Source of the DNA: Botryllus schlosseri
Lineage: Eukaryota
NCBI GenBank assembly: GCA_051294905.1
Contig: CM119371.1
Location: forward strand, 4,280,001 to 4,344,000
DNA length: 64,000 nucleotides
Direction: 5' to 3'
Positions 1 to 54,285 of this stretch are shown in pieces. Numbering within the stretch: position 1 is the first letter of the stretch; each line of letters starts with the position of its first letter. The notes under the pieces are model-generated. The model saw only the letters and a list, made by a program, of their open reading frames with translations, ran no database searches and had not been told where the DNA came from. The position numbers were made by a program, and so were the translations under genes.

Positions 1-103
1 CAAACAGGTGGTCGGTAGTTGTTGAGGTATGTAGCCTCGTGAAATGTGGGTTGACACAACTTGCTTTGTGGTAGGTCATTGAGATGGATCGATAGTTAAC
101 ATG
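1..103 (-). pseudogene. PLK1: PLK1-like e6 (kinase C-terminal end), cut by window edge
   Basis: cacag|c then MLTIDPSQ*PTTKQVVSTHISRGYIPQQLPTTCL, cf. PLK1 MLQTDPTARPT...SGYIPARLPITCL. Confidence 0.85.
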
Positions 104-126
104 CTGTGGACAAAATCATGTTGGGT

Positions 127-867
127 CAGTGTATGGTGCGTGTCACTACCAAAGAGTCACCAATCATTACAGATTTTGACTCGAGTCAAGTTGAGTCACT
201 TAATTTTTGAATGTGACTTGAGTCAAATCAAGTCACTAACATCGAGTCTCAAGTCATATCGAGTCTTACAGGTCTTCGAGTCAAGTCAATGTCGTCGAAT
301 TTGGGAAAGTGAGTAAATTAAATTCGAGCCATTAGATTTTTTCGGTTTTACTCTAGTCAAGTCAATCGACTCACTCGTCAGATCGAGCTATTACACATTT
401 TGACTTGAATCGAGCCAAGTAAACTTACGACTCGGGGTTACTCAATATATGAAGTAACTCGATTCAAGTCACTCGATTTTTAAACATGACTCAATTCCAG
501 TCACATCAGTCAAAATCAAGCGACTCAAAATTTTTAAGGTGGCTCTCGAGTGAATGTGAAAGCTGTGAAAATCAAGTCACTCGAAATTAGAAGTGACTCA
601 AAACAATTCAAGTCACTTGAACAGTTGACACTACTTCCACAAGTTGTTACGATAAAGATTACTTCTATGTGATAGTTATCAGTCACTAGAAAAAACTATG
701 CATAGAGAAGGCCTACATATTTTTCTACTTACTTGGAGACCACTACTTGTATTTGTAGGGTACACGAGTAAAAATTTACGACTCAACTTCTTCTTGAGTA
801 CCAACGTTAACTATTGTGACCACCTTCTAGTTTGATTCGAGACACGACTCCAGCCATCCCAACACTG
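127..867. mobile_element. Decayed MITE-like repeat rich in GACTCGAGTC/GAGTCAAGTC motifs
   Basis: Right end CATCCCAACACTG matches the ends of 23488-25480 and 46661-47603; inverted homolog at about 48790-49545. Confidence 0.6.
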
Positions 868-926
868 CAGTACATACAGGAATATATGAAAAAAAAATTC
901 AAATCGGAGTCTCAGATATAACATAC

Positions 927-1056
927 CCTTTTATAAGATCGCAAGTTGCAGATGATACATTATGCGGAGAAATGTATTCATTTCTTCTCCATTTTCAAGA
1001 AGGTTTGCTGCAACGTCTCACCTTTAAACGGTCGCTGGTTGGCCAACAATCGTTAC
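927..1056 (-). pseudogene. PLK1: PLK1-like e5
   Basis: ag|...LLANQRPFKGETLQQTFLKMEK/NEYISPHNVSSATCDLIK|gt with frameshifts, cf. [30 protein letters not shown]. Confidence 0.8.
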
Positions 1057-1345
1057 CTACAATAAATAAAATAATGTATCAAGTATGTATCAAAACTGAA
1101 TCAAGTATTCATTCTAATGATTTGATGTGACTGGTGTAGTGAGAGATGGATTTTTCCAGTCCTGAAATTATGCGATCCTTGCCACGAAGAGTAAATTGAT
1201 CAATCAGAATTATATTTCTGATATTATTTAACACTATTATTGTACAGCAATAGATTCTCCAGCTTCTAATACAAATTTTACATTTAGTTACAAACGTTTA
1301 CTTGTACTTGTGTTCGAGAGTTCACGCTGGCTACTTTGACTAGAT

Positions 1346-2052
1346 CAGGGCCGGCCAACCCGTGGCCCGCGGGAAGGTTTTGAGTGGCCCGCGAGGTAAT
1401 TTCCGAAATTTCTAATATCATCAAAAATGGATTTCACAGATTTGTAGCTTGCAAGGCCAACCAAAAATTTGATTAGTCCGGCCGCAATACTTGAGATGTA
1501 ATGACTAAAATATCAGTTCCGACGCATTGACAGATCCATCAGTCATTCACATATTGGTACATCTTCGTACACTACAATAGAGCAGAATAATTTGCGATAG
1601 ATTTATCAAAGGTAAAAATTTTCTACAAGCTCAGCGCAATATGCTGTCACTCGATTTTTTTGTTTTTAATATTGTTGCCCTTTTGTGAAAATGGAAGAAC
1701 ACCTAATGTATCAGATTGAGTCTAACTATATTCGCGATTACGAGACAAAGTGTCGTTCAACATATGCGACCGTGCATTTGCGCTCGCAGTAAGACCGTCC
1801 ACCGTGAAACCTAGGAACGAAGTGATTGACCCATGTTGGTCACAGCTTTCGATATCGATATGACCAAGCGCCGAATAGTCCAGTCCTCGCAAACCTAGCC
1901 CAGCGATATACAGCAGGCCCACAATATAGTAAAGTGACAATATTATTGATCTATGAACTTCAAAATATTTTCGCGCTTCGCGCGGATAGTCGCCCGCGCA
2001 AAAGTTCGTCAATCGAATGTGGCCCTTTGGCCGAAAAGGTTTGCCAGCCCTG
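1346..2052. mobile_element. Non-autonomous hAT (Buster/Charlie-like) element
   Basis: TIRs CAGGGCCGGCCAACC / GGTTTGCCAGCCCTG; perfect 8-bp TSD GACTAGAT. Confidence 0.9.
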
Positions 2053-2134
2053 GACTAGATCCTGTATTTGTCGATTAGATAACAAGCTCCCCCTATGTCA
2101 GTACTGTGTAGATGTCCAAATAAATATATCATAC

Positions 2135-2226
2135 CAAGATTTCCATTCCAAATCCTGCTTTCTCCGTCAGATCTACCCATTTGCTATTCCAAAGCATCAA
2201 TGCCGCGGGCGTATCTTCTCCCTCAT
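2135..2226 (-). pseudogene. PLK1: PLK1-like e8 (polo-cap and start of polo-box 1)
   Basis: cag|(D)EGEDTPAALMLWNSKWVDLTEKAGFG..|gtatg, cf. [27 protein letters not shown]. Confidence 0.8.
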
Positions 2227-2617
2227 CTGTTGAATTATAAGGAGTTTGATATACAGAAATGTAACACTTGACTGGTGCTATCAAGATTTTAGTCACTGCA
2301 ACATACTTCACAATTTAGATCTATGACATCTACTGATCTCGATACACAAATGGGATTCCTAATCACTTTGAATCAAAAAATCACTTTTAGAATTTCAGAG
2401 TAGAATGAATGTGACATCCGCCAGATCAAAATCAATGTCATTTTACAAACTAGATTCAGACAGAGAATCTATGTAGTCGTCAGAGTTCCCCAGACAAGCA
2501 TGAATTGATTTGAGCCATTGCTAGATTCGAATTTTAAAATATTAAATATAGCCTAAATTGCAAAGAGGAAGTCTATTTAGAATAAAACCACTTGGTGTTC
2601 CTCAAATGACAACGCAC

Positions 2618-2775
2618 CCTTCTGTATAGTTGACTTCAACGTTTGATTGTCATCGATCAACTTCCTGAGCTGAGCCTCAAGTTCTGCTGTATGGAGGTCT
2701 GGTGATTGGCACTGCATATGCTGGTCGCCTCTGGCTTGTCACCGAGAGGTTTCTGTCCGTCTGTATTAGCGGCAC
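2618..2775 (-). pseudogene. PLK1: PLK1-like e7 (interdomain linker)
   Basis: tttacag|...PDLHTAELEAQLRKLIDDNQTLKSTIQK|gt, immediately upstream of e8; cf. [20 protein letters not shown]. Confidence 0.6.
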
Positions 2776-3095
2776 CTGTAAAGAAAACAAGAATAAGCCG
2801 ATGCAACTATTTGATAATAGGACTGTGTTTGCGAAAATGAAAAATTTATTTCACTTTACATAAAAGGTTAAACTTTGGCTTTATTAGTGAAAGATGCTAG
2901 TTACCCGTTTTATCGATGTCAGTCCGGGCTGTAACCAAACCACAAAATTCTGAGTAACGAGTCAATCTTTCTTCTATGGTTTTGATTCCAATCATATTCA
3001 CTTCACAAACATGTCAAGTCCAAGTCAACGTGCAAACGGTCAAGTTCGAATCACAGTGTGGAGACTAGAATCCGACCCCGAGTCAAGGTGTTTAT

Positions 3096-4027
3096 TAGGG
3101 ATGGTGTGAACCTCTGAAAGGTTCGGGTTCCTGTGAACGCGAACCTTTTTGAAAGGTTCTGTGTGAACGCGAACGTGAACCTCGTGACGTCATATTGCTA
3201 ATTCCAACCCTACATTTCAGTGAAGTGATAGCCTTGCAATACCTAGCGACGATTCGGGCCACATAATGCCACAATGCTGAAATACCTATTGGTGTTTTAA
3301 ACGTCTACAGATGTATCAACTGGGGCAATCAATTGATATAATCATCCCAGAAAATCAATATCTTGCGTCGCTTTGCCACAATTCCGACGAGAGCTTGCAA
3401 GGGAATATAAGGTTACGCCTTAACGGTCAAGGTCAGGCCTGACAATGTATTTGGCGTTCCTAGTATTGCTACGTTGATATTGAGCAGAGTGTAAAACGGG
3501 TTTCCCTACTTGCTACCGATGTTACCCCTCTAACAAGTTATACAGCAGTAGCCATCACCCCAATCCACGGAGTTTGTTTTTATGATACATCAGACAACGA
3601 TATAATTTCATTGATTGGTTGGACAAGAGTCATTCGCTGACAACCTACATGTAGTGTTTCGCTCTTGATGTTGTGGGGTTGTGGATCAGGCTCACAGCAG
3701 AGATGAGTCACTAAATATTCGCAAACGGAAAGCTGGATATTTCGAGCAAACAATTGTAACAAAGCAAGTAAAATGTTTGAGATTTTAAAGGTGCATGCTC
3801 GTTTAGTGTTGATTTCTATGCTGCCAGCGTCATGCATATACCAGGCCCGTAGTTGAAATGCAATAAATTTCAACCAAAGATGCTACAATGAAGTGAAAAT
3901 TGTAATATATGAAAAAGGTTCACAGTGCAGAACCTACCAAGGTTCGTTTGTGAACGCGAACCTCTAAATATCTGAGGTTATTCACACACAGAACGCGAAC
4001 GTGAACCTCGCGTTCACACCATCCCTA
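3096..4027. mobile_element. Non-autonomous hAT (Ac-like) element
   Basis: TIR TAGGGATGGTGTGAAC at both ends, subterminal GTGAAC/GAACCT motifs, perfect TSD GTGTTTAT. Confidence 0.9.
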
Positions 4028-4723
4028 GTGTTTATTACCACTGCGCACTCTTGCGCTTGAGTCATATTCGACTCATTTTTACCAACTGTGGTCGAGTAAA
4101 AGGAACCACTAGGATTCGTAATAGACGGTAATGATTTTATCCTATCGTGGCGAGGAGCGTATAAGTTCATTATGGTACTAAATAAATCATATCTCAACTC
4201 AAATCAATAAAATCATTACTCATTTCGATTTGAGTACACAAATCATCGTGCCAAGCCTGAGTTTCGCAACAGCGAAATTTTCAAGTTTTCCAAACTAACT
4301 TGAAGCTATAGCAACAGAATTTTTCCAAATTAGATTAGAATAACTTGATTCGTGAATGTAACACAACAAAAATCAAGTTCTCTTCCTATCAATTCTGAAG
4401 CCATTCTAATAAGAGAGAGAATGGCAAATATCTGTACAACAAGCAAGCAAGCTAGCTAGCTGGTTTTGTGCTATACGGTTCTTCTGTAGCATTTTCAAGG
4501 AAAGCAAAAATTACATCAGAATTGAAATGAGATTACAGAATCATTTGAGTGTTTACTAATTAGATTCGAATTAGATTGCCTGCATTCCGCTTTAATTAGA
4601 CAAAAAGAATTATCTAGTTGTCCAAGTCTGCTAGTAATGAACGTTACAGAACTGATGCAATTGCGACCGCCATATTATAGCGGTCATTATAGCATTATAG
4701 CTGTAACGAGGAAATGTTTTTAC

Positions 4724-4862
4724 CCTTCTTTTACACAATTCAAGAACGATGCAGACAAAATCCATTTCTTGGAAAAATCCGTGAAAACCAACTACATGTT
4801 TGTGACTCAAACTGCAATGGAGACTGATCTCTGGACTCATTTGTCTTTCTCATGATCAGTGC
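4724..4862 (-). pseudogene. PLK1: PLK1-like e2 copy
   Basis: [39 protein letters not shown]|gt; 5' deletion. Confidence 0.9.
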
Positions 4863-5269: not shown

Positions 5270-5383
5270 CCATGTTGTATATGGCTTTCCGTGGTCGAGT
5301 CGGTTGTGGGCAGTTTCCGTGAAACGGGGCCGTTGAAGAACTCGCTCGCCCACACTTCTTTACAGAGGGTCGTTGCCAGCATT
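5270..5383 (-). pseudogene. PLK1: PLK1-like e6 copy (variant A)
   Basis: tag|a MLATT..KEVWASEFFNGPVSRKLPTT, homologous to 42811-42925; 3' boundary approximate. Confidence 0.7.
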
Positions 5384-6059
5384 CTAGCGAGAAAATCTCT
5401 AATATTGATCAAATCACAGATAGTTACTCACATTTTCAAACATTGTTTGAGAATCAGGATTTGTGGGTTAAAACTATAATAGCTTTGCATTTGAAATAGT
5501 AAACTATTTCCATATTTGGATAGGAAGAGGTCCACGTAGCAGGGTAGGCTTATTTGCAGACTTACACAACAAGCAAATGTTCAGTTTTTCCATATTTAAC
5601 AAGAATTAGCATTACAGAACAAATATTATAGCATAATTGTAATACCAGTATCCACACAGTTATTTTCAGATGAGATAAAAATTAGAAGTTATCTACACAT
5701 TTTCTCGTATTAGATTAGAGTTAGGATGATAGCTACACTTATTTTTCCAAATTAGATTATATTAACAACTGTTTCCGTGAAATCTTGGGACATCGAATGA
5801 AGCTCAGTTCATATCATATCAAAGTTCATTCTCCTGAGCACAAGAATGCAGTAAGCTAGACTCGTTTCTCACTATACAGTTCTTCTGTAGGAATTTCAGG
5901 AAAACCAAATAAGACTAGAATCAGATTACAGGCATTCACTGTAATTAGTTTAATTAGACAACTAGAATTATGTAGTTGTCCAAGTCTGACTTGAGTGCTG
6001 TCAATCAATCGTTACTGACCACCTCTGATCAAATACAATGCGCTACTGTAAACTGTAAC

Positions 6060-6185
6060 TTTATTATCTCTGTGAATGATGTTACCATCGTGAAGATAAA
6101 CAACTCCATGCAGAATCTGTTGCGTGCAATAACCAATCTCTGGTTCTGTGATGGCGCGCCTTCTTTTGTAAACTTCCCTCAGAGA
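6060..6185 (-). pseudogene. PLK1: PLK1-like e3 copy
   Basis: SLREVYKRRRAITEPEIGYCTQQILHGVVYLHDGNIIHRDNK; 126 nt, acceptor AG mutated. Confidence 0.9.
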
Positions 6186-7264: not shown

Positions 7265-7397
7265 ACTTCTTTTGCACAACTAGAGAACAATGTGGACAAA
7301 ATCCTCGTCTTCGAAAAATCCGTGAAATTAAACGACTAGCTTGTGATTCAAACTACGATGGAGACTAATCTAGTTTTGTCTTTATGATGATCATTTC
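7265..7397 (-). pseudogene. PLK1: PLK1-like e2 copy
   Basis: ..FHGFFEDEDFVHIVL*LCKRS|gt; frameshifts and a stop. Confidence 0.85.
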
Positions 7398-8169: not shown

Positions 8170-8345
8170 ATAACACAACCCATGGACCCAGTGTCCACTT
8201 TAAAACTGTGTCTTCCCTAGATCTTCCGAGGCAATACCGTTGAATGTGCGGCAAAAGGCGTCATTTGTTTGGATGTCAAAGTATACTTATGTAGCTAGGC
8301 CAAATCTCCAATCTTCATGTTGCTGTTCAGGAATCGATTCTTCAT
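8170..8345 (-). pseudogene. PLK1: PLK1-like e4 copy (degraded)
   Basis: FLNSNMKIGD/FGLAT..HSFKVDTGSMGCV|gtgagt; frameshifted. Confidence 0.85.
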
Positions 8346-8730: not shown

Positions 8731-8850
8731 CTTGATATCCGTGTGAATGATCTTACCAGTATTAATATTACCGACTCCAAGCAGAATCTGTTGCATGTAA
8801 TAACGACTCTCCGTGATGACACGCCTTCTTTTCTGAAGTTCCATCAGCGA
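8731..8850 (-). pseudogene. PLK1: PLK1-like e3 copy
   Basis: cag|SLMELQKRRRVITESRYYMQQILLGVGNINTGKIIHTDIK|gt. Confidence 0.9.
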
Positions 8851-11074: not shown

Positions 11075-11262
11075 AAAATATATCCCAGTGACCAGGTTTC
11101 CGTTTCGAAACTGTGTCCATTCTTGCCGAGAACTTCCGGGGCAATATAGTTGGGTGTGGCGCAAAAAGTGTTCTTTGTTCGGCTGTCAAAGTCGACTTTG
11201 GTAGCTAGGCTGAAACCTCCTATCTTCAACTCCATGTTATTGTTCCGGAAGAGGTCGTCCAG
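11075..11262 (-). pseudogene. PLK1: PLK1-like e4 copy (open frame); a 3' remnant of e5 follows at about 10969-10985
   Basis: cag|[62 protein letters not shown]|gtaagt; DFG mutated to GFS. Confidence 0.9.
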
Positions 11263-14704: not shown

Positions 14705-14851
14705 CCTTCTTTCGCACCACTCGAGAACGATGTCGACAAAATCCTTGTCTTGGAAGAATCCGTGAAATCCAAAGAGGTGCTCGTGATTTCAAACTGTGAT
14801 GAAGATGATCTCTTGACATTTCGTCTTCCTGGTGATCATCCGCAGCAATGC
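14705..14851 (-). pseudogene. PLK1: PLK1-like e2 copy
   Basis: ALL../DDHQEDEMS../[27 protein letters not shown]|gt. Confidence 0.85.
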
Positions 14852-15705: not shown

Positions 15706-15841
15706 CCTTCTTTTGCACAACTAGAGAATGATGTCGACAAAATTATCGTCTTGGAAAAATCTGCTGAAATCCAACGTGCTTGTGATTCCAGCTGCGATGG
15801 AGACTGATGTCTTCAAATTTTGTCTTTTTGATGGCCATTGC
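15706..15841 (-). pseudogene. PLK1: PLK1-like e2 copy
   Basis: HQKDK..DISLHRSWNHKHVGF/FFQDDNFVDIIL*LCKRR|gt. Confidence 0.85.
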
Positions 15842-16619: not shown

Positions 16620-16807
16620 ATAACACAACCCAACGACCGGATGTCCACTTTGAAACTGTTTCCTTACTTTCCTAGAACTTCCGGGGCAATATAGTTGGAT
16701 GTGACGCAAAACGTGTTCTTTGCTCAGCTGTCAAAGTCGATATTGGTAGCTAGGCCAAAATATCCACTCTTCATCGTCATGTTGTTGCTCAGGAATATAT
16801 TCTCAAG
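16620..16807 (-). pseudogene. PLK1: PLK1-like e4 copy
   Basis: [60 protein letters not shown]|gtgagt. Confidence 0.9.
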
Positions 16808-17191: not shown

Positions 17192-17303
17192 CTTGATATT
17201 CCGTGAAGATAAATATCACCAAGCAGAAGCTGTTGCATGTAATAACAGGTCTCTGGTTCCGTGATGACTCGTCATCCTTTGTAAACTTTGTAAACACCTG
17301 TGA
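17192..17303 (-). pseudogene. PLK1: PLK1-like e3 copy (degraded)
   Basis: ..KVYKG*RVITEPETCYYMQQLLLG..|gt with internal deletion. Confidence 0.8.
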
Positions 17304-17656: not shown

Positions 17657-17843
17657 AAAACACATCCCAGCCACAAGGTGTCCATTTTGAAACTGCGTCC
17701 ATTCTTGACGATAACTTCCGGTGCAATATAGTTTGGTGTGGCCCAAAAATGTTCTTTGTTTGGTTGTCAAAGTCGACTTTGGTAGCTTGTCCAAAATCTC
17801 CAATCTTCACCTCCATGTTGTTGTTCAGGAAGAGGTTATCCAG
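17657..17843 (-). pseudogene. PLK1: PLK1-like e4 copy
   Basis: [61 protein letters not shown]|gtgagt. Confidence 0.9.
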
Positions 17844-18252: not shown

Positions 18253-18426
18253 CTTCAGCACAATTCTACAAGCGAAAACTCATTTTGTTCCGACTTGCGT
18301 GATTTTTGAAGCATTTCGCAAATCCCCGTTTGCCAAGAAATGTACCTCTCATGTATCGTTTCCCACTAGAGTCATCACACACGACTTCGGGTTCTCTTTA
18401 GTAGCGATGTCAGCTTTATCTTACAT
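18253..18426 (-). pseudogene. PLK1: PLK1-like e1 (ATG, Gly loop, catalytic-Lys region)
   Basis: [54 protein letters not shown]|gtgagt, cf. [49 protein letters not shown]. Confidence 0.9.
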
Positions 18427-33491: not shown

Positions 33492-34484
33492 ATGTCTGAA
33501 CAAGTATACTTTGCGACGAACGAGATCGCCGAATGCATGTGTGATGACTAGGGCGGTGTTTTTTGACATGTCAAAATTTGTCAAAATTGTTCATTGAGTC
33601 AAAAATTTTTCGACGTCTGCATTTCGTTTGTATCGTAGATTTTGCACTGTCGATGAACATATGATTCACAAGTTTTCGCTTTTATAGGCCTACCGTTGTA
33701 AACGGCTAATTGTCTGCTCATTGTGAATCATAATCGGTCAAATAAAACAAATATGTGGACGTGGAATTATGGTCAACGTACCGCAATATCCTAACTGAAG
33801 AAAGACTTCTTGGGCATTGCATCATTCTTATATCAAAAAGCGCGTGATGGAAAACTGTGATGTAGACAACATTGTCAGAATGAAGCAACACGGTTTGTCA
33901 CCAGCAGAGTACGCACAACTTGAGTGTTGTCAGCCGGCAACTGCTGCTGTTGAACGTCCTTGGCAAGTTTCTTAAGGATATGCACTTTCTACCCAAGATG
34001 TAGGAAAGTATCTTTCGTTGTACTACAATTTTTTAAAATTATTTCTACCATAATACGTTTTGTAACCACTAGAATTCTTCATAGGGCCAGATTTCGTTAA
34101 AATATTGGTTTTTTCATTAAAAAAGTTCCCCGTTTTATAAGCCAGAAACGCTTTTCCAGGCCAAAGTAACTCGTTAGGACTGCCAGTTCCAACCAGAAAT
34201 GAAGACAAGTGGTACAATTTTAACATGTGGGGAAAACACTTAATTTGCATACGTTAGGTCAAAATTTGGTCAAAATTCAGTTTGTTTATGTCAAAGAAAA
34301 TCAAGATTTGTATTTTCCAAGTCAAAATTTTCCTTTTTTAAGTCAGAAAAAACCGCCCTAGTGATGACTCTACCGGGAACCATACACGAGAGGTCCGTTT
34401 CATGGCAGAGGCGGATTTGCCAAATGCTTTGAAGTCACTGGTGTCAGAACAAAACAAGCTTTCGCTTGTTAAAATGTGCCATAG
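33492..34484 (+). pseudogene. PLK1: PLK1-like e1 split by a hAT MITE (33492-33548 + 34369-34484)
   Basis: MSEQVYFATNEIAECMCDD[insert]STGN/YTRGPFHGRGGFAKCFEVTGVRTKQAFAC*NVP*|gtgagt. Confidence 0.9.
33549..34360. mobile_element. Non-autonomous hAT (Ac-like) element inserted in PLK exon 1
   Basis: TIRs TAGGGCGGT / ACCGCCCTA, perfect TSD GTGATGAC. Confidence 0.9.
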
Positions 34485-35568: not shown

Positions 35569-35686
35569 GTGCTACTCTAGAATGAGCATCTTGAAGACAA
35601 AATGTATCAAGAGATCAGTCTCCATTGCGGTGTGAATCACAACCACATCATTGAATTTCACGGACAAAGATTTTGTCCAGATCGTA
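35569..35686 (+). pseudogene. PLK1: PLK1-like e2 copy
   Basis: cag|VLL*NEHLEDKMYQEISLHCGVNHNHIIEFHG/DKDFVQIV. Confidence 0.85.
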
Positions 35687-36172
35687 ATTTGGAATAAAAA
35701 CTGTAGCTATAATTCTAATTGTAATCTAGTTTGGAAATACCGAAAATTAAACTATTATCACTAGGGCTGGGAACAATGATCTCAGTACCGTACCGTAATC
35801 AAATCTGGATCAATATATTGTTTGTGGTCCCATAGAAGGTAGGCCTACATATGTCAAATTTCAACCTCATTCATACTGCTTTGATGTCATAATGAGTGAT
35901 ACTTGAATACTCGACTCCAAGCCTAATACCGTACTGTATTCTGAATAGAATCACTCAGGTATTCACATTTTCCCTGCGTATGACAACTCTGATATCAAAA
36001 CGGCAGCCTGAAATGAACTTTCTGATTTATAAGGTTCACGGCGTCTGCAAAATTTGTTGTTGAATTTTACCAGCCGGCTAGCTCCAGAAGGTTTTGAACC
36101 ACTGATTTATATGTTCCGGCAAATAATATTGTCAATCTATCTGTCCGATTTACATTTGATTTTTGTTGTCAG

Positions 36173-36298
36173 TCGCTGATGGAAGTTTACAAAAGAAGAC
36201 GCCTCATCACAGAACCAGAGACTCGTTATTACAGGCAACAGATTCTGCTTGGAGTTGTTTACCTTCACGATTGTAAGATCATTCACACGGAAATTAAG
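36173..36298 (+). pseudogene. PLK1: PLK1-like e3 copy (open frame)
   Basis: cag|SLMEVYKRRRLITEPETRYYRQQILLGVVYLHDCKIIHTEIK|gt; 126 nt. Confidence 0.9.
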
Positions 36299-38067: not shown

Positions 38068-38255
38068 CGGGATATCCATTCCTAAACAATAACATGGACA
38101 TGAAGTTTGGAGATTTCGACCGAGCTACCAAAGTCTACTTTGCCGACCAGACAAAAAAGTTCTTTTTGTGGCACATCCAACTATATTACCTCGAAAGTTC
38201 TAGGCAAGAAGGCACACAGTTTCAGAGTGGAGACCTAATCGTTGGGTTGTGTTTT
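38068..38255 (+). pseudogene. PLK1: PLK1-like e4 copy
   Basis: FLNNNMDMKFGDFDRATKVYFADQTKKF/CGTSNYITSKVLGKKAHSFRVET*SLGCV|gtgag. Confidence 0.85.
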
Positions 38256-38964: not shown

Positions 38965-39102
38965 GCAATGATCATCAGAAAGACAAAACGTATGAAGAGA
39001 TTATCTCTATCAGAGTTTGAATGACAAGCATGTCGTTGGATTTCACCGATTCTTCGAAGACAAGGATTTTATCGACATCTTTCTCGAGTTGTGCTAAAGA
39101 AG
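38965..39102 (+). pseudogene. PLK1: PLK1-like e2 copy
   Basis: [39 protein letters not shown]|gt. Confidence 0.9.
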
Positions 39103-39134
39103 GTAAAACATTTCCTCGTTGCAACTGTAATATC

Positions 39135-40816: not shown

Positions 40817-40939
40817 TCGCTGATGGAAGTTTACAGAAAGACGCGCCATCACAGAAGCAGAGGCTTGTTATTGCATGTGACAGATTCTGATTAACGTCAT
40901 TATCTTCATGACTGTAAGACAATTCACAGAGATATTGAG
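40817..40939 (+). pseudogene. PLK1: PLK1-like e3 copy
   Basis: SLMEVYRK/AITEAEACYCM*QIL../YLHDCKTIHRDIE|gt. Confidence 0.85.
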
Positions 40940-42576: not shown

Positions 42577-42810
42577 TCCTAATATAACTGCATAAAGCTG
42601 AACATTTTCTAGGTATCCAAGTCTCCAAATCTGCTTCTCCTGATCCTTGAATCTCTTCGTATCCAAATACGGAATAAGTTTACGATATCAAATCCAAATG
42701 TAGATTCGTATTATAGTTCTAATTCCACAAATCTTCATTCCCAAATATATTTGGCATTATATACGAGTTAGTATCTGTGATTTGGTTATTATCTGTGATT
42801 TCTTCACTAG

Positions 42811-42995
42811 AATATTGGCGAGTGACCCGTCTCATCGAGCTTCTGTAAAGGAAGTGTTGGCCAACGAGTTCTTCAGCGGCTACGTTACACAAAACCTGCG
42901 CACAACCGGATTGAGCTGACGTCCAGGTTTCATTTCACGGACTCTTCCAAGACAAGGATTTTGTCGACATCGTTCTCGAGTTGCGCAAAAGAAAG
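42811..42995 (+). pseudogene. PLK1: Chimeric PLK1-like exon: e6 fused to the 3' half of e2
   Basis: tag|a ILASDPSHRASVKEVLANEFFSGYVTQNLRTTGLS*RP then [21 protein letters not shown]|gtgag. Confidence 0.85.
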
Positions 42996-46221: not shown

Positions 46222-46346
46222 TTGCTGATGGAAGTTTACAAAGAAGATGCGGCATCGCAGAACCAGCGACACATTACTAAGTGCAACAGATTCTGCTTGG
46301 AGTTTTTCATCTTGATGATTGTAGGATCGTTCAAACAGATATCCAG
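46222..46346 (+). pseudogene. PLK1: PLK1-like e3 copy
   Basis: LLMEVY/RRCGIAEPATHY*VQQILLGVFHLDDCRIVQTDIQ|gt. Confidence 0.85.
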
Positions 46347-47603: not shown

Positions 47604-47820
47604 CAAACAACAGGACATTGGTATCACGATTCTCGTGAAACGACGACGCATGTTTTGTAGCTGTTCGGCAATTGTTTTGGAAACGCATAACTAGCTAGAA
47701 CTATGCACTTTTCATAACTAAAACTAGAACTACTCAAAAAACTTTACTCAGTTGGCCAACAACCAGCCAGATTAATAGTTTATAAACTTGTGTATCTGAA
47801 TGTGAGATTTGTATTGACAG

Positions 47821-48006
47821 CTGGAGAACCTATCCCGTAACAATGTGGGCGTGAAGATTGGAAATTTTGGCCTAGCTACCAGAGTCGACTTTGATGTCCA
47901 AACAAGGAGTACATCTTGCGGCACATCCAACTGCATTGCCCCGGAAGTTCTCGACAAGAATGTACATAGTTTCAAAGTGGACACCCGATCTCTGGGTTGT
48001 GTGTTT
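47821..48006 (+). pseudogene. PLK1: PLK1-like e4 copy
   Basis: cag|LENLSRNNVGVKIGNFGLATRVDFDVQTRSTSCGTSNCIAPEVLDKNVHSFKVDTRSLGCV|gtgagt. Confidence 0.9.
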
Positions 48007-48611: not shown

Positions 48612-48730
48612 GTAGAGCCTACATTACTGGTCGGTAAACCACCGTTAGAAGGTCAGATGTTGCACGAAGCCTTATCGGAAATGGAGAAGAATGAATACAT
48701 GATTCCACCCTCTTGCGATCTAATCAGAAG
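48612..48730 (+). pseudogene. PLK1: PLK1-like e5
   Basis: TLLVGKPPLEGQMLHEALSEMEKNEYMIPPSCDLIR|gt. Confidence 0.9.
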
Positions 48731-49574
48731 GTATTGTTATTTCTGAGACTTGAAATCGACGTTTTTGCATGTTTTCTCATGCGTGCTCAGAGGTTGTTAA
48801 AGTAGTCATTGTTGGTACTCAAGTGGAAGTGGAAGCAACATTGTCAATTTCTACTCTAGTTCAAGTACAAATAGCGATCTCCAAGTAAGAAAAATAACGA
48901 ATATTCTGGCCTTGGTTTTGCCTGAAAACTGAAACTATTGAGTAGAAGTACCGTAGTCTATGCTCTGTCTTAGCTACTGAACACCTCTGGTCCGATCAAT
49001 GGCAACTTTTTCAGGTGACTTAACATGGTTTGAGTGTCCTTTAAAATCGTGTGACTTGAATTGAGTTTTAAAAATTAAGTGATTTGGCATCACTTGACTC
49101 GAGTTGCCCTTAAAACCTAATGACTCCACTTCACTAGGGTCAAAATGTGTAATAACCCAATGTTTCCTCTGAGGTAGTGTCGTGACTTGGCTCTACCTTG
49201 GAAAATCGAGTGACTCAACTTGACATTGATTTGAATCGCCTCCAAAAATGGAGTAACTGAGCTTGAATCCACTCAAAATATGTAATGAGTTGATGTTACT
49301 TGTGACTTGAAGTTAGTGACTAGACTTGACTCAAGTCACTCTTGGAAGCAAACTGTCTTGACTCGAGTAGCCTACAAATTTTGAATAATGTGACTCGAGT
49401 CAATTAAAATGGAGTGATTTGTCTTGAAGCGAGTACCTTTTAAAAATCAAGTAAAGTGACTGGATTTTAAAAAATGTAGTGACTTGATTAGACTCAAATC
49501 AACAGGGATAATGACTTAATGACTTGTGACTCTGTGGCAGGGACAACACTGACCTACTGTGATTTCATCCACAG

Positions 49575-49721
49575 CATGTTGTCTTTCGACCCATCTCATC
49601 AACCTTCCGCAAATCACGCTGTGTCTACTGTCCAGCCACTACATTCGTCAACAACTACCGACCACCTGCTTGCTTATCACAAAGACATCGCAAATCTCAA
49701 CTCAAGACCACTTTTTCAACG
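49575..49721 (+). pseudogene. PLK1: PLK1-like e6 (variant B)
   Basis: cacag|c MLSFDPSHQPSANHAVST/SSHYIRQQLPTTCLLITK..|gt; homolog of 1-103. Confidence 0.8.
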
Positions 49722-50049
49722 GTGACTTTTTTATAGTTCTACATCAAGGTCATGGTTAGAACCCGACTGATATCATATGTTTTAGCCGATACCGATACAA
49801 CCAATAACTAGCACAATTAGATTAGAATTTGAATGATTGCTGTATATTTTTTGCCAGATTAGATTGGAATTGTGATTACTAAATTCACAAAAACTTAAGG
49901 CGTCAAATCATATTATTATGTTCATATCAAATTGGATTTTGTTCTCACAAGTATGAGAATGACAAATATCCGTACAGCAAGCTTGGCCCGTTTCACACGA
50001 TACAGTTCTCCTTTTGCATTTTTCTGGGATGTCAGACATAGAAGTAAAT

Positions 50050-51105
50050 TAATATGAGATCATAGAAACATTAGATTGTGATCTAATAACGCTCGGAACA
50101 TGTTGTTTGATGCGTTCCTGCAAGCGCTGAGTTGTTCTTCCCACGTACCGACAATCACAGTGGCACTTGAAATCATAGACTATATTGCTTTGTTGAGAAG
50201 CAGGAAGCAATTGTTTGGTTGCGCGTTGCAGGAAGCAATTGTTTGGGGGTAAACACAACATTAGTTCTTACGTTATCGTAACAGCGATTTACAGCAGAAA
50301 TCAATTGCTTTTCAAACCTCGAAGAGATGGGGCCCAGCCACCTCAGACCGTGTGTTCGTGTTTTGTGATTTGTTGGGATTGAAATTACTGAGTTTTCTGT
50401 CCACAGAACTCTTGATGATGTGTTCGGGGTACCCGTTATCGATTAGAATATTGCGGATATATTCTAGCAACGCATTCAACTTTACATCCGAACAACTCAT
50501 CAAGGCTCTGTGCACTAACGTGTCAATCAAATTTAGTTAACGGCGATTCGGGCTAAAAGAATTCCAGCGTATAGAATGCCCTGTGAACGTTGGCTTCCGG
50601 TAAACCGAAGTGACAAAGCTAATTCTCCGTTTTTCACTTGGACTTCTAAGAATAGTAACGAGTTTGCACGCTCTTTTTCAAATGTGAATTTTAAAGACGA
50701 GTGTAGACAATTCAAGTTATCAAAGAAGTCATCGAACTCCGTCTCATTTTGACAGATAACGAAGGTGTCGTCGACATAGCGACGGTACATTAATGGAGGC
50801 TTGGTTTCATCTGCGGCAAAAAGTCTGTTTTCATGGAATCCCACAAATATATTGGCTAAAATCGGGACAAGAGGGCTACCCATAGCTACACCGTCGGTTT
50901 GCATGTAGATGGTATCGTTAAAACTAAACTCAACAGAGCAAGTAGCCGCCATATAGCGCGTCCGCACAAATATCAATGGTCTCCTTCAGCGGTACGTTCG
51001 TGAAGAGGCTAACGATATCATAAGAACTAAGAAACATATTCGAGTTTGGAAGGTCGGTGGTTTTCATCTCGTGCCCGATTGTGAACGAATCAGCGTCACA
51101 ATGCG
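50050..51105 (-). mobile_element. Degraded Penelope-like element (RT + GIY-YIG; Naiad/Poseidon-like)
   Basis: SYDIVSLFTNVPL, QTDGVAMGSPL, RRYVDDTF, LVHRALM, IVYDFKCHCDCRYVGRT in broken frames. Confidence 0.85.
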
Positions 51106-51191
51106 AATCATCATTATCGTGGTTTATATATTAATAAATATGTGATTATTGCACATAGATATTCTATCACATGTTTGTAAATCTGTTTCAG

Positions 51192-51310
51192 GCCGTGGCA
51201 TCAAAGACATGTGATCAGTGCGATCGTGTGAATTTACTCAGAACGTGCTTTCGGACGAGAAGCGACATCGCTCTATATCGAAACAACCATCAATATCAAC
51301 TGCACCTTTT
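51192..51310 (+). pseudogene. PLK1: PLK1-like polo-box 2 exon
   Basis: tttcag|AVASKTCDQCDRVNLLRTCFRTRSDIALYRNNHQYQLHL|gtaagt, cf. [34 protein letters not shown]. Confidence 0.8.
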
Positions 51311-51331
51311 GTAAGTTGGTAAATTCATTTT

Positions 51332-52698
51332 CGGCTGACCCTCGTCAGGGGGATATCGTCAGCAATGTGGCGAGAATTCGAATAACTATGTTCAAGAATA
51401 TTATATATCGCTAATTATGACGTCACACGAAAATATACAAAGTTAGAAAACGAGAGACCGCCCTTATCACCATCGCTATGTCGATGACACGTTCGTGATA
51501 TTCGATAATGAATCTGACTGTGATAGTTTACTGGAAAATTTAAACAAACTACACCCAGCATTTCAATTCACGTCGGAAAAATAAATTACCAACCGCCTGG
51601 CATTCCTTGACGTTCTTGTGGAGAAACGGGATGGCAAATTCCTTACCTCAGTTTATAAGAAGCCCACATTTTCGGGTCATTACCTTCGATGGAGCTCTTT
51701 CAGCCCAAAAAGTCGTAAAATCAATTTAATCGGCACCTTGGTTCACCGGACGTTGATGATTTGTTCCGCGGTCAAATTGAATAATGAACTTGACTACATC
51801 CGTAAAATTTTCATTGACAACGGATACCCAGAGTATGTTATTAAGCGGACAATAAGTAAAAAGTTAAGGCATTGGAATGATACGAAACCAGAAGAAACCC
51901 CCGAATTAATTTCTCGTGAAAGTAGGGATCTGTACATTCATCTTCCTTGGATTGTCCCAGTTTCTTATCGATTTGAGAAACAGATAACTTCAGCAGTCTA
52001 CCACTGTTATCCAGCGGTGAAAACTAATGTTGTCTTTACCACGATACCAATGTTTCCTGCAACCAGTAAGGACGTTCTCCCGGCTACAAAACAAAGAAAC
52101 GTAATTTATGAATTCAAGTGCCACTGCGATTGTCGGTACGTAGGGAGAACTTCCAAACGGTTGCAGGACCGTATCAAAGAACACATTCCACCCTCTGTCA
52201 AATCTTATATCTCAAATTCGCAGCATAACAATCCGTTTGTTCTTGAACATAACCAGGCCATGGGTCAAAAATCTTCAATAGGCAAACATTTACTAGAAGA
52301 TCATACGTGTGCTGCTAACTATCACGAGGAAATGTTCTCTATATTGGCTAAGGGTCGCAATTTATTTCATTTGTCTGTTCTTGAGTCCACCATCATCACT
52401 ATGAGTAAACCTAGTCTATGCCAACATAAAGAATTTGTGTATCATTTGAAAATCGCGCATTAACTTGTTTTGCTTCGCTATCTCCATGCCAACGCTTCAG
52501 CTCTCTCGTTTTCTAACTTTGTATATTTTTGTGTGACGTCATAATTAGCGATTTATAATATTGTTGAACATAGTTATTCGAATTCTCGCCATATTGCTGA
52601 CGATATCCCCCTGACGAGGGTCAGCCGAAAAGCTTCGGGAATAAAATGAATATTTTATTCAAATGTGTCATGAAGTTCTGTACTCCTAAGCGTCTCTT
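51332..52698 (+). mobile_element. 5'-truncated Penelope-like element (probably Naiad-like) with short inverted pseudo-LTR
   Basis: RYVDDTF...KPTFSGHYL...VIYEFKCHCDCRYVGRT (ORF 51618-52463); 51328-51457 is the reverse complement of 52502-52631; 12-bp TSD TAAATTCATTTT at 51320 and 52699. Confidence 0.9.
52604..52642 (+). ncRNA. Minimal hammerhead ribozyme motif in the PLE 3' LTR
   Basis: TCCCC-CTGACGA-GG(GTCAG)CC-GAAA-AGCT-TC-GGGA then ATAAAA; palindromic AAGCTT; weak stem II. Confidence 0.65.
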
Positions 52699-52798
52699 TA
52701 AATTCATTTTGCAGAAGAAAATTTTGCAAGAATTTATAAATGTATCCAATTGCAAATCACTGTATATCAGTAATGTCAAACTCAATTTATGTTGCGAG

Positions 52799-53300
52799 TA
52801 GGGCTGGGCAAAATCAAGTACCAGAGTGATTCGAATCTGAATTCTTAATATGCTTCGAGTCTATTGGAGTATCACGCATTGTGACGTCACAGCAGAATGT
52901 ACTATATCAAAGTTCAAATATGTTCCTTTTATGCCACTACAAAGAAGATTATGCGTGTTATCTGTCACATTAAAGATACTTTGGTAATTTTTCGACCTTA
53001 CCGATTTCATTGCACTTCTTGACAATGTTGTGGGAAGATCATGACTTCGAAAATGTATTATTTCCATTTTCGCAGCTTTGTACTATTTCTCGTACGGCGC
53101 GACATGGCCAATCAAGGTTTCAAGGCTTACTCAGTGAAAAATAGTACCAAGACTATAATTCTTGTTAGTAAATTAACTTTTAGTTGCGAGGAATGTATAA
53201 TTTGCGTACTTGAAAAAATTGTCTTTTACTACTCGACTCGAATCATTAAAATTAATACTCGATTCAGAATCGAGTACTCGCAGCATTGTGCCCAGCCCTA
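52799..53300. mobile_element. TAGGGCTGGG-ended hAT MITE
   Basis: Colinear with 43511-44020; TSD GTTGCGAG/GTCGCGAG. Confidence 0.9.
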
Positions 53301-54064
53301 GTCGCGAGACATATTGAAATAGTTTGAGTTGAGTAGTCATGTTGCTACTCAACTACAAGTATAAATAACGAATTCCAGGTCAGCAAAGTACAAGTATTTT
53401 TGGTCTAGTTTGTTTAAATACTGAAAACGGTGACATAGTAGTACTAGTATTTTAAAATCATAACCCCTTCGTGAAATAATGCAAGTAGGCAAACCCTACT
53501 CAAGTATTCCGTGGAAGTACTTTTTACCTTGTACCTCAATCAAGCAATAACAAAATATTACATCCTATACCTTTATACTACTTCTACTCAACCACGAATG
53601 GGAGTAATGATTCCCATGAATTGTGAAGTAAAAATAGAAAAGGAAGGTTTGAATGGTAATCAAGGCGAGTAGTTTTGAAAAGCAGATTTGGTCATGACGT
53701 CGCATACTTTTAGTAACTGATCGGAGTTGTTTACATTCGAAATTGCGAGATCCATCTTATCGACTAACACAAATGACTGATGACATTACCGCCATTACCG
53801 GTCGATGCAATTTACGGAAATATGTTCAATTACCATGCTACATGGGACACTTTGTCTTAATTGTCGTGACAATATCAATCATAATAGTGATCGGAAAATA
53901 TCCCAGAATTACTATATATTTTACGAAATCCAACGTATCAAAAATTACGTAGCCTAGTGGTTGAAACACTTTTGGGTAAAAGTGGGAGGAGTACTTCTGC
54001 CTGTAACCGAGTATACTTGTTCGTGAGTAAGTTGAGTAATTTCATATATTTTTCTATCATGCAG

Positions 54065-54285
54065 GACTACACCAAAGTGATTCTATGTCCTCTGATGGCG
54101 CCGTGACTTACATCGACCAGCAATGTAACTTCACTAACTACAAATTGGAACTGTTACAAGAAGACGAATACAATCACAGTTCAGGAGCTTGCCTGTGATA
54201 CGCAGATTGTATTTTGGAAGGACATATGTTTGAAGACTCTACTGAAGCAGATCATTCGCGATACGCTCGATGCAACTTTGTGTGA
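54065..54285 (+). pseudogene. PLK1: PLK1-like terminal exon (end of polo-box 2)
   Basis: gcag|DYTKVILCPLMA/VTYIDQQCNFTNYKLELLQED..CL*YA, cf. [36 protein letters not shown]..RLRYA. Confidence 0.9.

What the first reader, a model, noticed from the sequence alone, without database searches (positions are those of the whole stretch)
1..54285. Two head-to-head Polo-kinase loci built by intragenic exon amplification
Seen: about 30 splice-bounded PLK1-like exons form two divergent clusters (ATGs at 18426- and 33492+). Each has exactly one exon 1 at its 5' end but 2-4 copies each of e2, e3 and e4, all on one strand within a cluster. Established: canonical PLKs have one kinase domain plus polo boxes. 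Inference: amplification occurred inside the gene, not by whole-gene duplication. It could be the relic of a multi-(pseudo)kinase-module PLK family, a pool of alternative exons, or a PLK-derived dispersed repeat. These copies look dead, so the interesting object is the family or parent elsewhere in the genome.
Basis: partly seen in the sequence, partly recalled or inferred. Interest (0 to 1): 0.8.

Follow-up and report, generated by a model that had tools for sequence, protein, structure and literature searches.

The report
Decayed, rearranged Polo-kinase pseudogene pair
Two head-to-head stretches of an animal genome hold about thirty broken copies of exons of a Polo-like kinase gene. They are relics of repeated DNA duplication, not a working gene, and the one odd feature is that their splice signals are better kept than chance predicts.

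Summary
I find 30 PLK1-like exon copies. Those at 1-18426 all lie on the minus strand, and those at 33492-54243 all lie on the plus strand. Each cluster has one exon 1 and 2-4 copies each of e2, e3 and e4. None of 20 shuffles gave any hit.

Two internal junctions (e4->e2 and e3->e6) occur in the same order in both clusters, so internal rearrangement came first. The whole rearranged locus was then duplicated in inverted orientation, and cluster A duplicated blocks again.

Nothing supports a working multi-module kinase.
- Both exon 1 copies are broken.
- 15 of 19 e2-e4 copies carry stops or frameshifts.
- The e2-e4 module is 449 or 454 nt, so it is out of frame.
- pN/pS is 0.58-0.69, against a neutral simulation mean of 0.82.
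- Sampled RNA reads show only background and no listed exon-exon joints.
- The multi-stretch proteins I checked in a 1.84-billion-protein search are not PLKs.

Best reading: an old, unprocessed, partly duplicated PLK1-like pseudogene complex, of the kind described for Daphnia pulex.

One anomaly remains. Splice dinucleotides are kept in 36-37 of 37 sites, against 73% for the same dinucleotides inside exons (P about 0.001-0.008, post hoc). This may point to lasting selection for splicing of a non-coding transcript.

Interest is low to moderate.

The parts
18253..18426 (-). Cluster A exon 1 (ATG at 18426). It is broken: TAA at codon 2, a 1-nt deletion, a 1-nt insertion and a TGA. The catalytic-Lys codon reads AGA.
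17657..17843 (-). e4 copy A17.7 (1-nt deletion). Sister of A11.2.
17192..17303 (-). e3 copy A17.3 (19-nt deletion, 5-nt insertion, one stop). Part of block Y1 (15599-17456).
16620..16807 (-). e4 copy A16.7 (two stops). Block Y1.
15706..15841 (-). e2 copy A15.8 (deletions, and a TAG shared with A7.3). Block Y1.
14705..14851 (-). e2 copy A14.8 (local frameshift).
11075..11262 (-). e4 copy A11.2, the best-kept copy (open frame, 86.6 bits). DFG reads GFS.
8731..8850 (-). e3 copy A8.8 (in-frame 6-nt deletion, HTD). Block Y2 (7159-9025).
8170..8345 (-). e4 copy A8.3 (deletions of 6, 1 and 5 nt, one stop). Block Y2.
7265..7397 (-). e2 copy A7.3 (two stops, deletions). Block Y2.
6060..6185 (-). e3 copy A6.1 (open frame, HRD kept). 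Counterpart of B40.9.
5301..5427 (-). e6 copy A5.4 (14-nt deletion). Counterpart of B42.8. Coordinates are approximate.
4724..4862 (-). e2 copy A4.8 (1-nt deletion in the 5' part).
2138..2230 (-). Polo-box-1-like exon, out of order (it lies before e5 and e6). It scores 9.5 bits with my profile but is not found by Pfam at E<=0.01.
927..1056 (-). e5 copy A1.0 (5-nt deletion, 1-nt insertion, stops).
1..126 (-). e6 copy A0.1 (one stop). The locus runs off the window start.
33492..34484 (+). Cluster B exon 1 (ATG at 33492). It is split by an inserted element of about 810 bp (about 33550-34360) with terminal inverted repeats and a target duplication of about 9 bp. It also has a 1-nt deletion, TAA at the catalytic-Lys codon and TAG at the last codon.
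35569..35702 (+). e2 copy B35.6 (11-nt and 5-nt deletions).
36173..36298 (+). e3 copy B36.2 (open frame; HRD reads HTE). The copy closest to the consensus.
38068..38255 (+). e4 copy B38.2 (1-nt deletion, 1-nt insertion, one stop).
38965..39102 (+). e2 copy B39.0 (two 1-nt deletions, one stop). It lies 709 bp after B38.2, at the shared e4->e2 junction.
40817..40939 (+). e3 copy B40.9 (2-nt and 1-nt deletions, one stop, HRD kept).
42803..42995 (+). e6 copy B42.8 fused by a deletion to the 3' half of e2 copy B43.0.
46222..46346 (+). e3 copy B46.3 (1-nt deletion, one stop, QTD).
47821..48006 (+). e4 copy B47.9 (3-nt deletion, 1-nt insertion; DFG reads NFG).
48612..48730 (+). e5 copy B48.6 (open frame).
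49552..49672 (+). e6 copy B49.6. Coordinates are approximate.
51189..51308 (+). Polo-box-2 first part (weak, 2.1 bits), lying between retroelement fragments.
54041..54243 (+). Polo-box-2 second part, with a frameshift near 54100 and one stop (3.1 and -1.4 bits).

Best explanation
This is an old, unprocessed (intron-bearing) pseudogene complex of a PLK1-like gene in a marine animal genome. It has no protein-coding function.

Inferred history:
1. A PLK1-like gene copy underwent segmental duplication and rearrangement inside the locus, by unequal crossing-over or replication-based duplication with breakpoints in introns. This gave the order e1 e2 e3 e4 | e2 e3 e6 | e2 e3 e4 e5 e6 ... polo box. 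An e4->e2 splice is out of frame, so this step by itself would have disabled the copy unless the extra exons were skipped.
2. The whole rearranged locus was duplicated in inverted orientation, giving clusters A and B.
3. Cluster A duplicated two blocks again (e3-e4-e2, and e4 with its upstream intron).
4. Transposons inserted, deletions removed or fused exons, and point mutations accumulated at close to the neutral rate.

Shown: the map, the shared junctions, the pairing of copies, the lesions, and the near-neutral substitution pattern.

Inferred: the order of events, the mechanism of duplication, and the lack of function.
For: Map and strand rule:
- 31 of 31 tblastn HSPs and 25 of 25 profile hits obey the strand rule.
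- 0 of 20 shuffles gave any hit of 3 bits or more.

DNA-level duplication with introns:
- Blocks align through exons and introns at 66-81% identity.

Shared structure:
- B 35993-43092 is collinear with A 9034-4612 through e3, e4, e2, e3, e6, e2. B 48641-49672 is collinear with A 1032-1.
- The e4->e2 spacing is 772, 778 and 709 bp in three copies.
- Trees pair A6.1 with B40.9 (100/100), A8.8 with A17.3 (100/99), A8.3 with A16.7 (96/94) and A11.2 with A17.7 (100/100).
- The e6 copies also pair across clusters.

The parent was a true PLK:
- The majority consensus of the copies gives open e2, e3 and e4 with DFG and APE.

Decay:
- Both e1 copies are broken.
- 15 of 19 e2-e4 copies have a stop or frameshift, with 12 in-frame stops in all.
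- A7.3 and A15.8 share a TAG, so that exon was dead before the last duplication.
- Differences fall 118:93:128 on codon positions 1, 2 and 3. pN/pS against the consensus is 0.61.
- Pairwise pN/pS is 0.58, 0.69 and 0.64. The same estimator gives 0.82 on simulated neutral pairs, with a 5% point of 0.60.
- In the youngest pair of blocks, exons (77.2% identity, n=408) are no better kept than non-exon DNA (80.7%, n=1381).
- The module length is not a multiple of three.

RNA:
- In a bulk run sampled at about 6 in 100, exon-bearing low-repeat bins have depth 0-1.5 without strand bias. No joint between PLK exons is among the 15 listed.

Precedent:
- Partial, rearranged, stop-bearing PLK1 copies in Daphnia pulex are interpreted as pseudogenes or remnants of partial duplications (passages read in PMC2680839).
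Against: - Splice dinucleotides are kept far better than neutral decay predicts: 36-37 of 37 sites. Other AG/GT dinucleotides are kept in 251 of 342 instances inside exons and 207 of 366 in flanking introns.
- In nine independent sister pairs, 1 splice nucleotide of 36 differs where 7.9 are expected (P 0.0014). With the alternative e4 donor, 2 of 36 differ (P 0.0077).
- In older comparisons exons are better kept than aligned introns: 80-81% against 69-71% between units, and 76-82% against 73-74% between A and B. Fully conserved columns are 179 of 452 in exons and 54 of 348 in introns.
- pN/pS lies in the lower tail of the neutral simulation (3-20% of simulations reach it), so weak or early constraint is not excluded.
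- After I corrected the reading register, no point lesion in e1 is shared by A and B. Death before the inverted duplication therefore rests on the shared rearranged order alone.
- RNA evidence is thin. It comes from one bulk and one single-cell run, 3-6 in 100 of reads, with 1896 further joints not shown.
- No genome was held, so copy number and the parent gene are unknown.
Confidence: 0.8

Rival explanations
1. The loci are dead as kinase genes but are, or recently were, transcribed and spliced as non-coding RNA. Selection would then keep the splice signals but not the exon content. The product could be a pseudogene-derived long non-coding RNA or a small-RNA precursor that acts on the parent PLK gene. 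This concerns present function and is compatible with the origin given above.
For: - Splice dinucleotides are kept at 36-37 of 37 sites, against 73% for the same dinucleotides inside exons.
- The sister-pair test gives P 0.0014 to 0.0077.
- Retention holds in blocks Y1 and Y2 (0 of 12 splice nucleotides differ in their three exon pairs) even though their e2 already carried a shared stop. In those blocks exons evolve no more slowly than introns.
- Extended donor motifs are also kept: e4 has GTGAGT in 4 of 6 copies, and the other two differ by one base.
- Conserved splice sites with poorly conserved sequence is the pattern reported for long non-coding RNAs (PMC4408788; I saw only the search listing).
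Against: - No listed exon-exon joint, and only background depth (0-1.5) without strand bias in the exon bins of the sampled RNA runs.
- The test is post hoc. The e4 donor is ambiguous, and the weaker reading gives P 0.0077.
- The two arms are only 69-74% identical and 15 kb apart, so they are a poor source of double-stranded RNA.
Confidence: 0.12
2. The internal repeats come from a tandem array of whole PLK genes that later lost exons by deletions or unequal crossing-over, and not from duplication inside one gene.
For: - Older copies show exons better kept than introns (80-81% against 69-71%). This would fit a period as separate working genes.
- The polo-box-1 exon lies out of order in cluster A.
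- An e4->e2 junction can also arise by unequal exchange between neighbouring genes.
Against: - Each cluster has only one e1 and one polo-box-2 end.
- There is no trace of e5 to polo box or of e1 between units.
- The e4->e2 junction is a single event shared by three copies.
- pN/pS between old units is 0.64, not the low value expected of working kinases.
Confidence: 0.2
3. The exon-bearing blocks are gene fragments captured and spread by a transposon. That would make them a PLK-derived dispersed repeat, with many more copies elsewhere.
For: - The region is packed with high-copy elements. Depth of summed contigs is up to several hundred times that of the exon bins, and element ends are sharp at 43511 and 44021.
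- Every e4 copy is followed by the same element of about 500 bp.
- At 36203, inside e3 B36.2, 32 contigs of an independent DNA run cover the place, against 2-7 at the other exon or unique places listed.
Against: - The blocks are collinear with gene order and share introns, as expected of segmental duplication.
- I did not search for transposon termini at block ends, and no block end was seen to coincide with an element end.
- The element after e4 sits 50-90 bp from the exon in the five copies where its start is kept (truncated, about 9 bp away, in A11.2), so it was inherited and is not the carrier.
- Other exon places listed show 2-7 contigs. The 32 contigs may be short pieces of the in-window copies.
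Confidence: 0.07
4. One reading: relics or members of a PLK family with repeated (pseudo)kinase modules, or a pool of mutually exclusive alternative exons.
For: - Splice sites are intact.
- Some copies are open: e3 A6.1, A8.8 and B36.2, and e4 A11.2.
- Exons are somewhat better kept than introns in old comparisons.
Against: - The e2-e4 module is 449 or 454 nt, and e4->e2 is out of phase.
- The open copies in cluster A lie in the wrong order (e4 at 11.2 kb, e3 at 6.1 kb, e2 at 4.8 kb on the minus strand).
- Both e1 copies are broken.
- 15 of 19 copies are disabled.
- Catalytic motifs are lost in most copies: HTD, HTE or QTD, and GFS, NFG or DFD.
- No multi-module PLK was seen among the multi-stretch hits I examined (3 of 6 among the best 150).
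Confidence: 0.03

Closest known systems
Partial PLK1 copies POLO-F to POLO-K of Daphnia pulex (PMC2680839, passages read)
   Same: These are PLK1-clade fragments with stop codons, rearrangements or chimerism and truncated length. [quoted passage not shown]
   Different: Here the fragments form two inverted clusters with a shared internal exon order. The copies are much more diverged (20-30% between copies), and the organism is a different, marine animal. In Daphnia some fragments have expression evidence; here none was seen in the runs sampled.
Unprocessed (duplicated) pseudogenes formed by segmental or partial gene duplication (general class; from established knowledge)
   Same: They keep exon-intron structure, carry stops and frameshifts, evolve close to neutrally and lie in repeat-rich DNA.
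   Different: Splice dinucleotides are kept beyond the neutral expectation. The locus also combines internal duplication, inverted duplication and a second round of block duplication.
Spliced long non-coding RNA loci with conserved splice sites but fast-evolving exons (PMC4408788, search listing only)
   Same: The pattern of constraint is the same: splice signals kept, exon sequence close to neutral.
   Different: No transcript has been shown here. The exons derive from a kinase gene and are present in many copies.
Arrays of mutually exclusive alternative exons (for example Dscam-type; recalled, not searched)
   Same: Several copies of the same exon lie on one strand, with intact splice sites.
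   Different: Such arrays hold runs of one exon with equal length and open frames. Here the units are mixed e2-e3-e4 blocks, and 15 of 19 copies are disabled.

Membership tests
Functional Polo-like kinase gene | Open reading frame from the start codon through the kinase domain | tested here: not met
   Both e1 copies have stops and frameshifts, and B e1 also has an inserted element. 15 of 19 e2-e4 copies are disabled.
Functional Polo-like kinase gene | Catalytic residues (Lys of beta-3, HRD, DFG) | tested here: not met
   The Lys codon is AGA in A and TAA in B. HRD is kept in 2 of 6 e3 copies (A6.1, B40.9), and B40.9 is disabled by a stop and deletions. DFG is kept in 2 of 6 e4 copies (A17.7, and B38.2 as DFD); the others read GFS, YFG, NFG or carry a gap.
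Functional Polo-like kinase gene | Polo-box domain | tested here: inconclusive
   My PLK profile finds a polo-box-1-like piece at 2138-2230(-) and polo-box-2-like pieces at 51189-51308 and 54041-54243(+), all above every shuffle. Pfam finds no POLO_box at E<=0.01 in the two frames I gave it. The pieces carry a stop and a frameshift.
Unprocessed (duplicated) pseudogene | Exon-intron structure of the parent kept, and copies alignable through introns | tested here: met
Unprocessed (duplicated) pseudogene | Disabling mutations and a substitution pattern near neutral | tested here: met
   There are 12 in-frame stops and many indels. pN/pS is 0.58-0.69 against a neutral mean of 0.82. Codon positions are 118:93:128. 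Splice sites are the exception.
Unprocessed (duplicated) pseudogene | A functional parent gene elsewhere | not testable with these tools
   No genome is held. The protein searches found no relative above 67% identity.
Processed (retro-) pseudogene | No introns, poly(A) tail | tested here: not met
   Introns are present between and around all copies.
Mutually exclusive alternative-exon array | Runs of the same exon, of equal length, all open and phase-compatible | tested here: not met
   The units are mixed e2-e3-e4 blocks, lengths vary (112-126 for e3, 176-188 for e4), and 15 of 19 are disabled.
Transposon-captured gene fragments | Common element termini around the fragments, and many dispersed copies | tested here: inconclusive
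   I made no dedicated search for termini. Genome-wide copy number is not testable. The only hint is 32 contigs at place 36203.
Spliced long non-coding RNA locus | Conserved splice sites with weakly conserved exons | tested here: met
Spliced long non-coding RNA locus | A spliced transcript | tested here: inconclusive
   There is no exon-exon joint among the 15 listed, and 1896 joints are not shown. Only background depth was seen, and only 3-6 in 100 of the reads of two RNA runs were sampled.

The most novel reading that the evidence does not exclude
The two inverted PLK pseudogene clusters are kept as splice-competent, non-coding transcription units. The unusual retention of their splice signals would then reflect selection on a spliced RNA, either a pseudogene-derived long non-coding RNA or a small-RNA precursor, that regulates the parent Polo kinase gene, for instance in the germline.
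Probability: 0.08. Interest if true: 0.55.

Novelty: new member of a known kind. Interest (0 to 1): 0.25.

Why it matters
As it stands, this is a well-resolved example of how a gene copy decays through partial duplication, inverted duplication and transposon insertion. It is useful for annotation, because these 30 exon-like pieces should not be called as kinase genes or joined into a multi-kinase model. It is not a new kind of system.

The only point that could matter more widely is the retention of splice signals in exons that are clearly non-coding. If it holds up in population and transcript data, it would be a clean natural case of selection on splicing without coding, in a locus derived from a cell-cycle kinase.

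Tried and rejected
- Whole-genome search: no genome is held for this window. Copy number, the parent gene and other loci could not be examined.
- Earlier findings of this scan: none for this genome or for the 7159-9025 block.
- Search for the parent protein: the query e4 A11.2 gave PLKs of at most 66-67% identity. The query e3 B36.2 gave 2 candidates, neither scoring. Both are weak evidence only.
- Sequencing runs: no RNA holder was listed for 34300-44200.
- Laying two RNA runs on 33300-53299 showed mostly transposon-derived partial matches. In the bulk run, 0.98 of laid reads run on unlike sequence, and only 158 of 4044 are 99% alike or better.
- The best-supported long joints (35044->40982, 33955/33959->42077) link copies of repeated elements, not PLK exons.
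- The claim of a stop codon shared by both e1 copies: I first read one at the catalytic-Lys codon. It came from using a shifted register in cluster A, so I dropped it.
- An 'e3' at 17860-17975: rejected. It is the intron upstream of e4 A17.7.
- Altered genetic code: rejected. Frameshifts and large deletions are present, and the neighbouring zinc-finger frames are open under the standard code.
- Assembly error as the source of the lesions: unlikely. An independent run's contigs match the stretch (9596 pieces 99% alike or better), and few differences are listed inside exons. However, no piece spans the large-scale arrangement.
- tRNA and Rfam scans: nothing found.
- Phase of e1->e2: as preserved, e1 ends on a codon boundary while e2 needs one base. 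The encoded stretch is also three residues shorter than in the reference PLKs. I could not tell whether this is a lost micro-exon, a shared 1-nt lesion or a lineage feature.

Full report
**What is there**

The window is AT-rich animal DNA (GC 0.35-0.44), full of repeats. Stop-to-stop frames already show kinase-like pieces. The frame 11071-11280(-) matches PLK1 kinase-domain structures (best E 6.2e-23), ahead of PLK3, PLK2 and PLK4. Its relatives in the large protein collection are polo kinases: 17 of the 19 significant hits carry the POLO-box family, at 62-66% identity.

I used four of these proteins for tblastn, and 15 full-length ones to build a profile for a six-frame search. Every hit in 1-18391 lies on the minus strand, and every hit in 34380-54268 on the plus strand. 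That holds for 31 of 31 HSPs of P0015 and 25 of 25 profile hits above 3 bits. Twenty locally shuffled windows gave no hit above -1.4 bits.

With the weaker copies found by DNA similarity and by profile alignment, the count is 30:
- e1 x2, e2 x7, e3 x6, e4 x6, e5 x2 and e6 x4;
- one polo-box-1-like exon at 2138-2230(-);
- two polo-box-2-like pieces at 51189-51308 and 54041-54243(+).

**Anatomy**

In gene direction, cluster A reads as follows (positions in kb):
- e1 (18.4), e4 (17.7)
- e3-e4-e2 (17.3, 16.7, 15.8)
- e2 (14.8), e4 (11.2)
- e3-e4-e2 (8.8, 8.3, 7.3)
- e3 (6.1), e6 (5.4), e2 (4.8)
- polo-box 1 (2.2), e5 (1.0), e6 (0.1)

It then runs off the window.

Cluster B reads:
- e1 (33.5/34.4), e2 (35.6), e3 (36.2), e4 (38.2)
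- e2 (39.0), e3 (40.9)
- e6 fused to e2 (42.8-43.0)
- e3 (46.3), e4 (47.9), e5 (48.6), e6 (49.6)
- polo-box 2 (51.2, 54.1)

The copies align with each other through exons and introns at 66-81% identity. They are therefore DNA-level duplicates, not retrocopies.

B 35993-43092 is collinear with A 9034-4612 through e3, e4, e2, e3, e6, e2, and B 48641-49672 with A 1032-1. Two non-canonical junctions are thus shared by both clusters:
- e4->e2, with spacings of 772, 778 and 709 bp. About 500 of about 600 bp of intron 4 are retained before the jump to sequence upstream of e2.
- e3->e6.

Trees of exon plus flanks pair A6.1 with B40.9 (100/100). Within A they pair A8.8 with A17.3 (100/99), A8.3 with A16.7 (96/94) and A11.2 with A17.7 (100/100). 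The e6 copies also pair across clusters.

The order of events that fits is this. Internal duplication and rearrangement came first. Inverted duplication of the whole locus followed. Then cluster A duplicated two blocks again (7159-9025 with 15599-17456 at 75%; 11067-11529 with 17649-18123 at 78%). Transposon insertions and deletions came on top. Examples are an element of about 810 bp with inverted termini and a target duplication of about 9 bp that splits e1 of B, and a deletion that fuses e6 to half of e2 in B.

**Coding capacity**

The majority consensus of the copies gives open e2, e3 and e4 that read as a normal PLK kinase core with DFG and APE. The parent was therefore a true PLK1-like gene.

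The copies themselves are not.
- Both e1 copies carry stops and frameshifts. The catalytic-Lys codon is AGA in A and TAA in B.
- 15 of 19 e2-e4 copies have a stop or a frameshift, with 12 in-frame stops in all. Only e3 A6.1, A8.8 (in-frame deletion) and B36.2, and e4 A11.2, are open.
- HRD reads HTD, HTE or QTD in 3 of 6 e3 copies and is removed by a deletion in a fourth (A17.3).
- DFG reads GFS, YFG, NFG or DFD, or carries a gap, in 5 of 6 e4 copies.
- The open copies of A lie in the wrong order for a transcript.
- e2 is 140 nt and needs one base from the preceding exon. e3 is 126 nt. e4 is 183 or 188 nt, depending on which GT is the donor. The e2-e4 module is therefore not a multiple of three, and an e4->e2 splice cannot keep the frame.

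A repeated-module kinase is therefore not encoded here, and the first internal duplication would itself have been disabling unless the extra exons were skipped.

Six of the best 150 hits (of 2718) in 1.84 billion representative proteins have more than one matched stretch. The three long ones (P0020, P0035, P0120) have kinase domains only and no polo box. I did not examine the three short ones.

**Selection**

- Differences from the consensus fall 118:93:128 on codon positions 1, 2 and 3, and pN/pS is 0.61.
- Pairwise pN/pS is 0.58 (A-B counterparts), 0.69 (young pairs within A) and 0.64 (old units).
- The same estimator, with the same exclusion of stop codons, gives a mean of 0.82 on simulated neutral pairs, with a 5% point of 0.60. 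The simulated divergence, 0.29, is somewhat higher than the observed value.
- In the youngest blocks, exons (77.2%) are no better kept than non-exon DNA (80.7%).
- In A-B comparisons exons are slightly better kept (76-82% against 73-74%).
- Between old units the gap is clearer (80-81% against 69-71%).

I read this as near-neutral decay, with at most weak or early constraint.

A7.3 and A15.8 share a TAG, so that exon was dead before the last duplication. I first thought both e1 copies shared a stop codon. That was an error of register in A, and I withdrew it. Death before the inverted duplication therefore rests on the shared scrambled order only.

**The unexplained point**

All 19 GT donors and 17 of 18 AG acceptors of e2-e4 are in place. 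The eighteenth, A6.1, has an AG five bases upstream. Other AG and GT dinucleotides are kept in 251 of 342 instances inside exons and in 207 of 366 instances in flanking introns.

In nine phylogenetically independent sister pairs, 1 of 36 splice nucleotides differs where 7.9 are expected from the exon divergence of the same pairs (P 0.0014). If the frame-compatible GT five bases upstream is taken as the e4 donor, 2 of 36 differ (P 0.0077).

The test is post hoc, but it also holds in the Y blocks, whose e2 was already dead. Possible readings are lasting selection on splicing of a non-coding transcript, or chance. I could not test transcription further.

**Expression**

One bulk and one single-cell RNA run of the same species label were laid on 33300-53299. 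They gave mostly partial matches to transposons. Exon-bearing low-repeat bins had depth 0-1.5 without strand bias, and no joint between PLK exons was among the 15 listed. A further 1896 joints were not shown, and only 3-6 in 100 of the reads were sampled. An independent run's contigs confirm the local sequence, but none spans the large arrangement.

**Comparison with known cases**

The closest described case is Daphnia pulex. There, six partial PLK1 copies with stops, rearrangements and truncation are read as pseudogenes or remnants of partial duplications (PMC2680839, passages read).

The present locus belongs to the class of unprocessed, partially duplicated pseudogenes. It fails the tests for a working PLK, a retrocopy and a mutually exclusive exon array. 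Transposon capture could not be tested without the genome. The pattern of kept splice sites with free exon sequence resembles what is reported for long non-coding RNAs (PMC4408788, listing only), but no transcript is shown.

**Verdict**

- Observation confirmed; interpretation partly supported.
- The object is an ordinary, if elaborately rearranged, pseudogene complex. It is a new member of a known kind.
- Interest 0.25. The splice-site retention is the one lead worth a follow-up.

Noticed in passing
28260-29786 (+) and 55666-56745 (-): Two open C2H2 zinc-finger arrays, of 508 and 359 residues stop to stop, with an 84-bp finger period and many Pfam zf-C2H2 matches. They are about 74% identical to each other at DNA level. 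They look like intact genes or exons of a lineage-expanded zinc-finger family.
   Followed up: partly
30360-31119 and 32395-33147; also 50533-50985 (-) and 51585-52463 (+): Retroelement fragments with reverse-transcriptase matches (RVT_1 at 31105-31962 and 50533-50985). There is also a weak GIY-YIG match, below the Pfam cut-off, at 51585-52463, as in Penelope-like elements. The first pair is an inverted repeat of 94% identity lying just upstream of cluster B.
   Followed up: partly
43511-44021, with copies at 52799-53301 (84%), 7633-8086, 16119-16535, 48104-48540 and 45716-46027: A high-copy element of about 510 bp with sharp read ends at 43511 and 44020/44021. Some contigs and reads show an 'empty-site' joint 43502->44021. 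A copy follows every e4, 50-90 bp after the exon where its start is kept, so one insertion predates the e4 duplications.
   Followed up: partly
about 33550-34360 and 41685-42396: An element of about 810 bp with terminal inverted repeats and a target duplication of about 9 bp splits exon 1 of cluster B. A 72% identical copy lies between e3 and e6 of the middle unit.
   Followed up: partly
9190-9788 and 43143-44258: A stretch that is 91-93% identical in direct orientation in both clusters, far younger than the clusters themselves (69-74%). It is probably two recent insertions of one transposon family. The B copy is interrupted by the 510-bp element.
   Followed up: no
36203 (inside e3 B36.2): In an independent DNA run, 32 contigs cover this place, against 2-7 at the other exon or unique places listed. 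Nearly all of their depth (4849 of 5106) carries G, which is the base of the consensus. Six single-cell RNA reads show G as well. This could mean more e3-like copies, or the parent gene, elsewhere. It could equally be short pieces of the in-window copies.
   Followed up: no
34484/35569 and 18253/...: As preserved, e1 ends on a codon boundary while e2 needs one base from the preceding exon. The stretch between the beta-3 lysine and the HQK motif is three residues shorter than in the reference PLKs. This could be a lost micro-exon, a shared 1-nt lesion or a lineage feature.
   Followed up: partly
26787-27066; 12043-12483 with 12713-13153: A 280-bp stretch that matches its own reverse complement at 87%, and a 441-bp inverted repeat of 96% identity. 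Both lie outside the PLK exons.
   Followed up: no
36375-36615 and 37682-37966: Short tandem-like repeats rich in CTAGAA-type units flank e3 and e4 copies and recur upstream of every e4. They inflate the read depth in those bins.
   Followed up: no
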